Shown: positions 25,745 to 28,884 of the stretch, in pieces | How positions within the stretch are numbered: position 1 is the stretch's first letter | How the letters are laid out: every line of letters starts with the position of its first letter | NCBI GenBank assembly: GCA_951406725.2 | Contig: OX597818.1 | Span: 137,888,001-137,952,000 of the forward strand | Source: Octopus vulgaris | Lineage: Eukaryota | Length of the DNA stretch: 64,000 bases | Direction of reading: 5' to 3' | Notes under the pieces: generated by a model | Seen by the model: the letters and a program-made list of their open reading frames with translations, nothing else | Databases searched by the model: none | Told to the model about the DNA's origin: nothing | Position numbers and translations under genes: made by a program

Positions 25745-28026
25745 TAAATTCCTTGGTTTGGATTTGGAAACACTGAAAGTAAGAACTTACCCTTTCGAAG
25801 ATCCGCTCTCAACTACCAGTGCCAACGAATCCAAATAAGCAAGTGAATCATTTCTGCTCTCCCCTTTCCACCAGCGTGGGTTAAAATCATCAAACGCTAT
25901 GCTTATTTCGGTAAAATCCGAAGCATTAATTAGAGGGAGATTAATTATAATTTCAACAATTGAGGGTAAAATTAATTAATTATTAATCAATTTCACCAAG
26001 TGTTCAGTATGCAAAGGGACCATTTAAGGCGAATTCAAATTATTACATTATATAAAAGGGCTTAGTAAAATAAATTACTTCGCCGCATACTGAACTCATT
26101 AGAAATAGCAGCTAAAAAACTTTTTTAAAGCTATTTCTAATACTTAAAGAAAATCTCTCTCATATATAGCGCTTGCTTAATTCAACTCACAAAAGTTTGG
26201 GGGTAAGGACATTAAAAAATCAAATGCTAAGGTTATTTGAGTACGTACGTTTCAAGATTAGTCAAAGCAACATTTCTCTCTTCAGCTCATAAATTCCTTG
26301 GTTTGGATTTGGAAACACTGAAAGTAAGAACTTACCCTTTCGAAGATCCGCTCTCAACTACCAGTGCCAACGAATCCAAATAAGCAAGTGAATCATTTCT
26401 GCTCTTCCCTTTCCACCAGCGTGGGTTAAAATCATCAAGCGCTATGCTTATTTCGGTAAAATCCGAAGCATTAATTAGAGGGAGATTAATTATAATTTCA
26501 ACAATTGAGGGTAAAATTAATTAATTATTAATCAATTTCACCAAGTGTTCAGTATGCAAAGGGACCATTTAAGGCGAATTCAAATTATTACATTATATAA
26601 AAGGGCTTAGTAAAATAAATTACTTCGCCGCATACTGAACTCATTAGAAATAGCAGCTAAAAAACTTTTTTAAAGCTATTTCTAATACTTAAAGAAAATC
26701 TCTCTCATATATAGCGCTTGCTTAATTCAACTCACAAAAGTTTGGGGGTAAGGACATTAAAAAATCAAATGCTAAGGTTATTTGAGTACGTACGTTTCAA
26801 GATTAGTCAAAGCAACATTTCTCTCTTCAGCTCATAAATTCCTTGGTTTGGATTTGGAAACACTGAAAGTAAGAACTTACCCTTTCGAAGATCCGCTCTC
26901 AACTACCAGTGCCAACGAATCCAAATAAGCAAGTGAATCATTTCTGCTCTCCCCTTTCCACCAGCGTGGGTTAAAATCATCAAACGCTATGCTTATTTCG
27001 GTAAAATCCGAAGCATTAATTAGAGGGAGATTAATTATAATTTCAACAATTGAGGGTAAAATTAATTAATTATTAATCAATTTCACCAAGTGTTCAGTAT
27101 GCAAAGGGACCATTTAAGGCGAATTCAAATTATTACATTATATAAAAGGGCTTAGTAAAATAAATTACTTCGCCGCATACTGAACTCATTAGAAATAGCA
27201 GCTAAAAAACTTTTTTAAAGCTATTTCTAATACTTAAAGAAAATCTCTCTCATATATAGCGCTTGCTTAATTCAACTCACAAAAGTTTGGGGGTAAGGAC
27301 ATTAAAAAATCAAATGCTAAGGTTATTTGAGTACGTACGTTTCAAGATTAGTCAAAGCAACATTTCTCTCTTCAGCTCATAAATTCCTTGGTTTGGATTT
27401 GGAAACACTGAAAGTAAGAACTTACCCTTTCGAAGATCCGCTCTCAACTACCAGTGCCAACGAATCCAAATAAGCAAGTGAATCATTTCTGCTCTCCCTT
27501 TCCACCAGCGTGGGTTAAAATCATCAAACGCTATGCTTATTTCGGTAAAATCCGAAGCATTAATTAGAGGGAGATTAATTATAATTTCAACAATTGAGGG
27601 TAAAATTAATTAATTATTAATCAATTTCACCAAGTGTTCAGTATGCAAAGGGACCATTTAAGGCGAATTCAAATTATTACATTATATAAAAGGGCTTAGT
27701 AAAATAAATTACTTCGCCGCATACTGAACTCATTAGAAATAGCAGCTAAAAAACTTTTTTAAAGCTATTTCTAATACTTAAAGAAAATCTCTCTCATATA
27801 TAGCGCTTGCTTAATTCAACTCACAAAAGTTTGGGGGTAAGGACATTAAAAAATCAAATGCTAAGGTTATTTGAGTACGTACGTTTCAAGATTAGTCAAA
27901 GCAACATTTCTCTCTTCAGCTCATAAATTCCTTGGTTTGGATTCGTTGGCACTGGTAGTTGAGAGCGGATCTTCGAAAGGGTAAGTTCTTACTTTCAGTG
28001 TTTCCAAATCCAAACCAAGGAATTTA

Positions 28027-28078
28027 TGAGCTGAAGAGAGAAATGTTGCTTTGACTAATCTTGAAACGTACGTACTCA
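28027..28078 (+). ncRNA. Type I hammerhead of the inverted units (also 28572-28623)
   Basis: CTGAAGA 28031-28037, GAAA 28063-28066, palindromic ACGTACGT stem III, GTA cleavage triplet. Confidence 0.72.
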
Positions 28079-28821
28079 AATAACCTTAGCATTTGATTTT
28101 TTAATGTCCTTACCCCCAAACTTTTGTGAGTTGAATTAAGCAAGCGCTATATATGAGAGAGATTTTCTTTAAGTATTAGAAATAGCTTTAAAAAAGTTTT
28201 TTAGCTGCTATTTCTAATGAGTTCAGTATGCGGCGAAGTAATTTATTTTACTAAGCCCTTTTATATAATGTAATAATTTGAATTCGCCTTAAATGGTCCC
28301 TTTGCATACTGAACACTTGGTGAAATTGATTAATAATTAATTAATTTTACCCTCAATTGTTGAAATTATAATTAATCTCCCTCTAATTAATGCTTCGGAT
28401 TTTACCGAAATAAGCATAGCGTTTGATGATTTTAACCCACGCTGGTGGAAAGGGGAGAGCAGAAATGATTCACTTGCTTATTTGGATTCGTTGGCACTGG
28501 TAGTTGAGAGCGGATCTTCGAAAGGGTAAGTTCTTACTTTCAGTGTTTCCAAATCCAAACCAAGGAATTTATGAGCTGAAGAGAGAAATGTTGCTTTGAC
28601 TAATCTTGAAACGTACGTACTCAAATAACCTTAGCATTTGATTTTTTAATGTCCTTACCCCCAAACTTTTGTGAGTTGAATTAAGCAAGCGCTATATATG
28701 AGAGAGATTTTTTTAAGTATTAGAAATAGCTTTAAAAAAGTTTTTTAGCTGCTATTTCTAATGAGTTCAGTATGCGGCGAAGTAATTTATTTTACTAAGC
28801 CCTTTTATATAATGTAATAAT

Positions 28822-28884
<63 letters not shown>

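What the first reader, a model, noticed from the sequence alone, without database searches (positions are those of the whole stretch)
27128..28822. Array folds back into a ~1.7-kb palindrome through an 8-bp inverted microhomology
Orientation flips at TTTGGATT (27936-27943), a sequence present in both orientations within the unit. This gives ~815-bp near-perfect arms (27128-27943 and 28007-28822) with a 63-bp spacer. It fits a template switch or twin priming during reverse transcription. Transcription from either side would give both hammerhead-sense RNA and a long dsRNA hairpin (possible siRNA or ADAR substrate).
Basis: partly seen in the sequence, partly recalled or inferred. Interest (0 to 1): 0.7.

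Follow-up and report, generated by a model that had tools for sequence, protein, structure and literature searches.

The report
Retrozyme insertion primed from both ends
The 1.7-kb palindrome is real but is the usual back-to-back shape of a common 545-base non-coding mobile repeat with a predicted self-cutting RNA motif, likely made when a Penelope-type enzyme copies the RNA from both sides of one DNA break at two fixed start points; the 8-base match at the fold is likely an incidental joining point.

Summary
Observation confirmed: 816-bp arms (0 mismatches, 2 gaps), 63-bp spacer, 8-bp inverted match. The array is a young copy (4.7 + 1.6 units, head to head, in (TA)n) of a 545-bp non-coding unit with a type I hammerhead motif: a non-LTR retrozyme with over a thousand insertions. 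Inversion is the family's habit (29 of 41 stretches). Each junction differs; this one occurs once; the other cleanly resolved ones have 0-5 nt of microhomology. The 8-mers are the base of an RNA hairpin in the unit. The telling feature is the outer ends: 29 of 30 inverted insertions (29 of 31 in a second sample) have one arm ending at site A and one at site B, about 98 nt apart, matching the 'tail' signature of Penelope-like elements. Best reading: two cDNAs primed from both ends of one break, then annealed. Simple fold-back and chimeric reads do not fit. No read bridges the junction; cleavage, circles, dsRNA, siRNA, editing and the partner enzyme are untested. The scan reported this architecture before for other retrozyme families of this genome.

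The parts
25409..27943 (-). Left arm: 4.7 tandem 544-545-bp retrozyme units, hammerhead sense on the - strand; its 3' end (site A) faces the left (TA)n
   Evidence: units differ from one another by 0-2 positions; 99.8% to the reference unit
27936..28822 (+). Right arm: 1.6 units in the opposite orientation; its 3' end (site B) faces the right (TA)n
   Evidence: 887 nt, one 1-nt deletion against the reference unit
27936..27943 (.). Junction microhomology TTTGGATT, shared by both arms (unit positions 478-485 and 407-414, the base of an RNA hairpin)
   Evidence: found once in the genome
27944..28006 (+). 63-nt spacer = inside of the unit's 407-485 hairpin, present only in the right arm at this point
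28028..28077 (+). Type I hammerhead motif (CUGAAGA ... GAAA, palindromic helix III ACGUACGU, predicted cut after GUA at 28074); second + copy at 28573-28622
   Evidence: read from sequence; positions; core kept in 30 of 30 inverted loci; activity untested
25694..27922 (-). Five hammerhead motifs on the - strand (27922-27873, 27378-27329, 26833-26784, 26288-26239, 25743-25694)
25274..25409 (.). Left (TA)n target
28822..28882 (.). Right (TA)n target; a target-site duplication cannot be told inside the repeat
19372..19999 (.). Second, older copy of the family in the window (86.7% to the unit), also head to head, site B on the left and site A on the right, 2-nt junction overlap

Best explanation
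This is one young head-to-head insertion of a non-coding 545-bp hammerhead repeat (a non-LTR retrozyme) in a TA microsatellite, likely written in one event by a borrowed Penelope-like RT/GIY-YIG enzyme that would prime a cDNA from each end of a double-strand cut, one at site A and one at site B of the RNA, after which the two cDNA ends likely annealed at a chance 8-nt complement. Shown: the structure, the family, the two fixed outer ends, their one-of-each pairing, variable junctions with short microhomology, and the same sequence variant in both arms. Inferred: RNA intermediate, Penelope-like enzyme, simultaneous priming, strand displacement on a multimeric or circular template. The 8-nt complement exists because the RNA has a hairpin there; it has no role as a flip signal.
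For: 29 of 41 stretches hold a head-to-head insertion (30 junctions); 29 of 30 have one end at unit position 284-300 and one at 193-209, in (TA)n (P = 2.9e-8 against 50:50). Position-ordered second sample on contig C1: 29 of 31 (paired by hand). Either arm may be the longer (A 14, B 15). Junction offsets uniform (p = 0.55); microhomology mean 2.1 nt in 21 clean junctions against 0.78 at random. 32 locus-private variants are shared by both arms, 20 are in one arm. An autonomous RT + GIY-YIG element of this genome shows the same (TA)n targets, two fixed 3' ends and head-to-head inversions. PMC11167929 (main text read): a Penelope-like protein cuts and extends both strands at AT-rich DNA and starts at two internal RNA sites that define the tail. 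PMC8557442 and PMC3846280 (passages): inverted 5'-truncated copy, tail often at one end only.
Against: No autonomous element sharing sequence with the unit was found (41 PLE-bearing stretches or loci compared). The A-B distance (about 98 nt) is longer than the published 30-40-nt tail and the 46 nt of the autonomous element, where only 3 of 5 fully seen inversions have mixed ends. One true A/A insertion exists in a sister subfamily (L123). In vitro, no difference in start site between strands was seen (PMC11167929). Samples are not random: the first is the best-matching loci, the second misses ends with diverged motifs, and 8 unpaired B ends were not fetched. No target-site duplication can be read.
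Confidence: 0.72

Rival explanations
1. Fold-back (self-priming or template switch): one cDNA folds on itself at the 8-mer, copies itself back, and the hairpin is then cut or resolved by the endonuclease at the second fixed site.
For: The 8-nt overlap is the longest of 21 clean junctions and unlikely by chance. The right arm matches the left array in the register with a 465-nt loop. It would explain identical variants in both arms. PMC3846280 (passage) proposes self-priming for palindromes at PLE inverted junctions; PMC8557442 (passage) ascribes the tail to endonuclease resolution.
Against: The short-loop version cannot give the 2.5-kb arm. Loop offsets are spread evenly over the unit, only 2 of 30 under 30 nt. 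The longer, hence first, arm is A in 14 and B in 15 cases, so the second arm would have to stop each time at whichever site the first did not use.
Confidence: 0.14
2. DNA-level rearrangement after insertion (replication template switch or inversion within a pre-existing tandem array, guided by the unit's inverted 8-mers).
For: A tandem array offers the inverted 8-mer in every unit; 28 inverted 8-mer pairs exist per unit.
Against: It would not place the outer end of the inverted arm at site B in (TA)n, nor give one-of-each ends in 29 of 30 cases; most junctions have only 0-3 nt of overlap.
Confidence: 0.05
3. Assembly artefact from fold-back chimeric reads.
For: Perfect arms; a single assembly was seen.
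Against: Different unique flanks on both sides; the right arm stops at site B rather than mirroring the whole 2.5-kb array and left flank; the same geometry with different junctions recurs at 29 other junctions, including copies only 76-87% like the unit.
Confidence: 0.03
4. Two independent insertions into the same TA repeat, back to back.
For: (TA)n is a preferred, re-usable target; neighbouring separate insertions exist (L039, L047, L063).
Against: No TA repeat between the arms; arms share private variants; ends are one of each kind.
Confidence: 0.03

Closest known systems
Metazoan non-LTR retrozymes (Cervera and de la Pena 2020, PMC7229834, passages; Li, Clavereau and Pollet 2026, 10.64898/2026.07.22.740005, parts 1-3 of 5 read)
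   Same: Tandem non-coding repeats under 50% GC with one type I hammerhead per unit, strongly self-paired (circular fold z = -6.2), proposed non-autonomous partners of PLEs.
   Different: Unit of 545 bp is above the 170-400 nt of the 2020 paper (within the 51-972 bp of the 2026 preprint). Neither main text describes inverted insertions or fixed ends ('inverted' 0 hits; only a reference title). Expression, cleavage and circles untested here. Supplements not seen.
EN+ Penelope-like element insertions (PMC3846280, PMC8557442 passages; PMC11167929 main text)
   Same: Partial tandems, inverted 5'-truncated copy head to head, tail at one end, (TA)n targets, two internal initiation sites, ends not at the ribozyme cut site.
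   Different: No ORF; tail about 98 nt instead of 30-40; both arms often longer than one unit (10 of 30); mixed ends nearly without exception; partner element not identified.
L1 twin priming (as described in PMC2837659 and PMC2246262, passages)
   Same: Both ends of the break prime cDNA; the two 3' ends point outwards; short microhomology at the internal junction.
   Different: L1 gives two inverted fragments with an internal deletion and variable internal priming. Here both start sites are fixed and the arms overlap in sequence; only 1 of 29 A arms stops at site B after about 100 nt (L043).

Membership tests
Non-LTR retrozyme | [quoted passage not shown] | tested here: met
   544-545-bp units; local GC about 0.33; longest stop-free frame 62 codons
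Non-LTR retrozyme | Type I hammerhead core in every unit | tested here: met
   CUGANGA and GAAA in all 7 copies of this insertion and 30 of 30 inverted loci; triplet GUA in 22, GUU in 8; palindromic helix III pairs between two units in the fold
Non-LTR retrozyme | Canonical hammerhead geometry (G10.1-C11.1 closing helix II; match to a curated model) | tested here: inconclusive
   The closing pair is G-U or U-U; no Rfam match at gathering score; the single motif does not fold as a hammerhead by minimum energy
Non-LTR retrozyme | Self-cleavage and linear/circular monomer RNA | not testable with these tools
   Only assembled contigs of public runs were available
Non-LTR retrozyme | Dispersed, mobile family | tested here: met
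   236 matches from 40 of 1279 candidates scored; 1821 exact core matches; 1064 A ends on the + strand alone
PLE-type insertion | Inverted 5'-truncated copy, head to head | tested here: met
   29 of 41 stretches
PLE-type insertion | Two fixed 3' ends with a tail at one end | tested here: met
   29 of 30 and 29 of 31; tail about 98 nt, longer than the published 30-40
PLE-type insertion | AT-rich / (TA)n target | tested here: met
   All 29 A ends and 30 B ends listed run into TA-rich repeat
PLE-type insertion | Sequence shared with the pLTR of an autonomous PLE | tested here: inconclusive
   None in 20 GIY-YIG loci (one locus held unrelated sister repeats) or the 4270-bp element; only 150 of 6136 GIY-YIG candidates were scored
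Autonomous PLE | RT + GIY-YIG ORF | tested here: not met
   No ORF in the unit
L1-type twin priming | Two inverted, non-overlapping fragments of one transcript with an internal deletion | tested here: not met
   Arms overlap in unit sequence; both exceed one unit in 10 of 30; A-arm 5' ends are not gathered at site B
L1-type twin priming | Target-site duplication | not testable with these tools
   Hidden in (TA)n; no empty allele available
Hairpin-RNA / siRNA / ADAR substrate locus | Transcript through both arms, small RNAs or A-to-I edits | not testable with these tools
   No raw RNA reads offered

The most novel reading that the evidence does not exclude
Two reverse transcriptases of a Penelope-like dimer run round one circular 545-nt retrozyme RNA, which offers exactly one A and one B start site, so every full insertion is a head-to-head pair of rolling-circle arrays. 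This would be a genomic record of rolling-circle retrotransposition, and the family would seed around a thousand long inverted repeats able to give dsRNA in an animal lineage known for heavy RNA editing (recalled; the lineage label comes from earlier scan notes).
Probability: 0.3. Interest if true: 0.7.

Novelty: new member of a known kind. Interest (0 to 1): 0.4.

Why it matters
The fold itself is ordinary for Penelope-type insertions. The useful part is the near-invariant one-A-one-B rule across about 60 insertions: it ties a retrozyme to Penelope machinery by insertion footprint rather than by co-occurrence, and it gives exact start sites and a short RNA for testing how Penelope-like elements make their inverted, tailed insertions, which PMC8557442 calls still undefined. 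I did not find this footprint described for retrozymes in four searches of the held library; subscription papers and supplements were not seen.

Tried and rejected
Independent support for the junction: contigs of 6 public runs were laid on it (X1, X10, X8, X13; X1, X13, X19, X2); none bridges 27936-27943, pieces stop at the 8-mer and go on as the plain unit. Contigs drop rare variants and the individuals may differ, so this proves nothing either way. No RNA holder on record was listed. Rfam: no match. Recurrent flip site: rejected (one match each). Short-loop fold-back as a family rule: rejected. Using unit-private indels to name the template unit of the right arm: uninformative (four 1-nt indels or pairs of substitutions, none shared). 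Partner search: GIY-YIG scan and two autonomous families (781-aa and 775-aa ORFs) share no sequence with the unit; a pattern for site A running on into other sequence gave 5 matches that were not fetched. Two apparent A/A pairs proved to be duplications of one A/B insertion (L124). No host exon was recognised in the window's ORF list; a large intron is not excluded. Earlier scan notes by sequence: none for this unit.

Full report
Observation. The coordinates hold. 27128-27943 and the reverse complement of 28007-28822 are 816 nt each, with no mismatch and two gap columns. TTTGGATT is at 27936-27943, its complement at 28007-28014, and both recur once per unit. The palindrome is one register of a larger insertion: a 4.7-unit array (25409-27943) of a 544-545-bp unit joined to 1.6 inverted units (27936-28822), with (TA)n on both sides. 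The right arm pairs as well with earlier units (779 nt, 100%, 465 nt apart).

The unit. It has no long ORF (62 codons at most) and folds strongly as a circle (-142 kcal/mol, z = -6.2 against 30 shuffles). Read by eye, it carries a type I hammerhead: CUGAAGA, helix II, GAAA, a self-complementary helix III (ACGUACGU) and a GUA triplet. Two neighbouring helix III palindromes pair in the fold of a two-motif stretch, as expected of the dimeric motifs described in PMC4209133 (passages). The core is kept in 30 of 30 inverted loci. Against activity: the pair closing helix II is G-U or U-U, not G-C, and Rfam gives no match; 8 of 9 retrozyme dimers tested in the 2026 preprint did not cleave. The hammerhead sense points away from the junction in both arms, so the arrangement is head to head and both 3' ends face the flanks.

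The family. A search of the own genome scored 40 of 1279 candidates and gave 236 matches. Exact patterns give 1821 hammerhead cores, and on the + strand alone 1064 site-A ends and 678 site-B ends running into (TA)n (the reverse counts are inflated by overlapping matches, and sister subfamilies are included). I fetched the 39 other places that could be read off and added the two copies in the window. Of these 41 stretches, 29 hold a head-to-head insertion (30 junctions) and 12 do not. Inversion is the family's habit.

The ends. Numbering the unit from the predicted cut site, outer ends fall in two classes: A (284-300) and B (193-209). 29 of 30 inverted insertions have one of each (P = 2.9e-8 against 50:50); the exception (L032) has a rearranged A piece just beyond a short TA run. 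This insertion has A on the left and B on the right; the older copy at 19372-19999 has the reverse. Because that sample is the best-matching loci, I paired ends by hand in the position-ordered lists for the first 39.6 Mb of contig C1: 48 A ends, 30 B ends, 22 head-to-head A/B pairs (two of them probably one duplicated locus), no B/B. I fetched 24 of the 26 unpaired A ends in 20 stretches: 7 more A/B insertions (L124 counted once), one true A/A (L123, a sister subfamily 76-83% like the unit), one A with an atypical second end (L134), 11 with no second arm resolved. That is 29 of 31; the 8 unpaired B ends were not fetched. The ends are not at the ribozyme cut site, and arms run through several cut sites, so the template was uncut multimer or circle (inference).

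The junction. The junction 23-mer occurs once in 2.8 Gb, exact or degenerate. Of 30 junctions, 21 resolve cleanly: overlaps of 0 (3), 1 (8), 2 (3), 3 (4), 5 (2) and 8 nt (this one), mean 2.1 against 0.78 for random inverted joins; 8 have inserted or unresolved letters and one could not be scored. So short complementarity is used, and 8 nt is its upper tail (P = 0.00087 per junction, about 2.6% for one in 30). The two 8-mers are the base of a hairpin of the unit RNA (407-485, -31 kcal/mol); 20 of 30 loci have a G there that keeps a G-U pair in RNA but breaks the DNA complement, and only 7 of 30 have the perfect pair. It is an RNA helix, not a flip signal.

One template or two. By majority letters the two arms here are identical over 545 positions; the nearest other locus differs at 1, the median by 2.2%. 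Over all 30, 32 locus-private variants are carried by both arms (22 in one old copy, 10 in 8 others) and 20 by one arm. Both arms exceed one unit in 10 of 30. The arms therefore come from the same RNA variant, and both polymerases passed each other's start site, which needs strand displacement, two RNA molecules from one source, or copying of the first cDNA.

Mechanism. PMC11167929 (main text read) shows that a purified Penelope-like protein cuts and extends both strands of AT-rich DNA, starts at two internal RNA sites that define the genomic tail, and does not need ribozyme cleavage; it is predicted to be a dimer. PMC8557442 and PMC3846280 (passages) describe the inverted 5'-truncated copy, the tail at one end and the (TA)n bias. 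A young autonomous RT + GIY-YIG element of this genome (4270-bp unit, 76 of 76 scored hits at 100% identity) shows the same footprint: ends at two sites 46 nt apart in (TA)n, 9 head-to-head inversions in 21 stretches, though only 3 of the 5 seen whole have mixed ends, and it shares no sequence with the unit. The best reading (0.72) is two cDNAs primed from the two ends of one cut, at A and B, then annealed. Fold-back with endonuclease resolution remains (0.14): it explains identical arms but not the even spread of loop sizes (p = 0.55) or the 14:15 split of which arm is longer; the 63-nt-loop version cannot make the 2.5-kb arm. Classical L1 twin priming (passages) predicts non-overlapping fragments, which is not met. 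DNA rearrangement and chimeric reads do not explain an arm ending at site B in (TA)n before unique flank.

dsRNA. By geometry, a - strand read-through would pair about 816 bp and leave three hammerhead units free; a + strand one would bury both of its hammerheads. Nothing here shows transcription, small RNAs or editing.

Earlier notes and print. After forming my reading I looked up the scan's notes: the same architecture was reported for 355-360-bp and 490-495-bp retrozyme families of this genome, one note proposing two enzymes on one RNA ring; none matched this unit by sequence. They are unchecked notes and are not counted as support; the octopus label comes from them and was not tested. Four literature searches found the PLE structure and the retrozyme class, but not this footprint for retrozymes; supplements and subscription papers were not seen. 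10.1101/2024.12.14.628481 (passages) was read for L1 fold-backs and added nothing specific.

Verdict. Real, not an artefact by its structure, and ordinary for its family: a new member of a known kind. Interest 0.4, for the testable one-A-one-B rule rather than for the palindrome or the 8-mer.

Noticed in passing
window 47177-49790 (+): 5'-truncated Penelope-like element with an open RT frame (Pfam RVT_1), a CxxxxCxxC linker and a GIY-YIG-like end by eye, and a minimal hammerhead-like motif near 49657-49690; flanked by TA-rich repeats. Its last about 40 bases recur alone at 30228-30270. Not compared by alignment with the 545-bp unit.
   Followed up: partly
window 19372-19999: Older head-to-head copy of the same retrozyme family, ends B and A, 2-nt junction overlap.
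   Followed up: yes
L095, L103-L122: Very young autonomous RT + GIY-YIG element, 4270-bp unit, with two upstream open frames (223 and 266 codons) before the 775-codon frame, no hammerhead found by my pattern, 46-nt tail, at least 76 copies with an identical protein stretch.
   Followed up: partly
L083-L094, L096-L099: Second RT + GIY-YIG family with a 781-codon frame preceded by an overlapping 479-codon frame without Pfam match.
   Followed up: no
L098:7062-7345 and 8160-8390: Two further repeats about 74% like unit positions 138-279, inserted as inverted pieces in (TA)n: sister families seem to share the end region.
   Followed up: no
L124:2361-2990 and 7791-8419: One short A/B insertion duplicated as an inverted pair and again 5.4 kb away.
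   Followed up: partly
window 21074-21845: 14 copies of a 55-bp unit, 99% identical.
   Followed up: no
window 30660-31720: Decayed fragment resembling the 3' part of an RTE-type non-LTR retrotransposon between (TAA)n/(AAG)n repeats (recalled resemblance, by eye).
   Followed up: no
window 49830-50295: Inverted repeat with arms of about 210 bases (49835-50045 and 50080-50295), read by eye.
   Followed up: no
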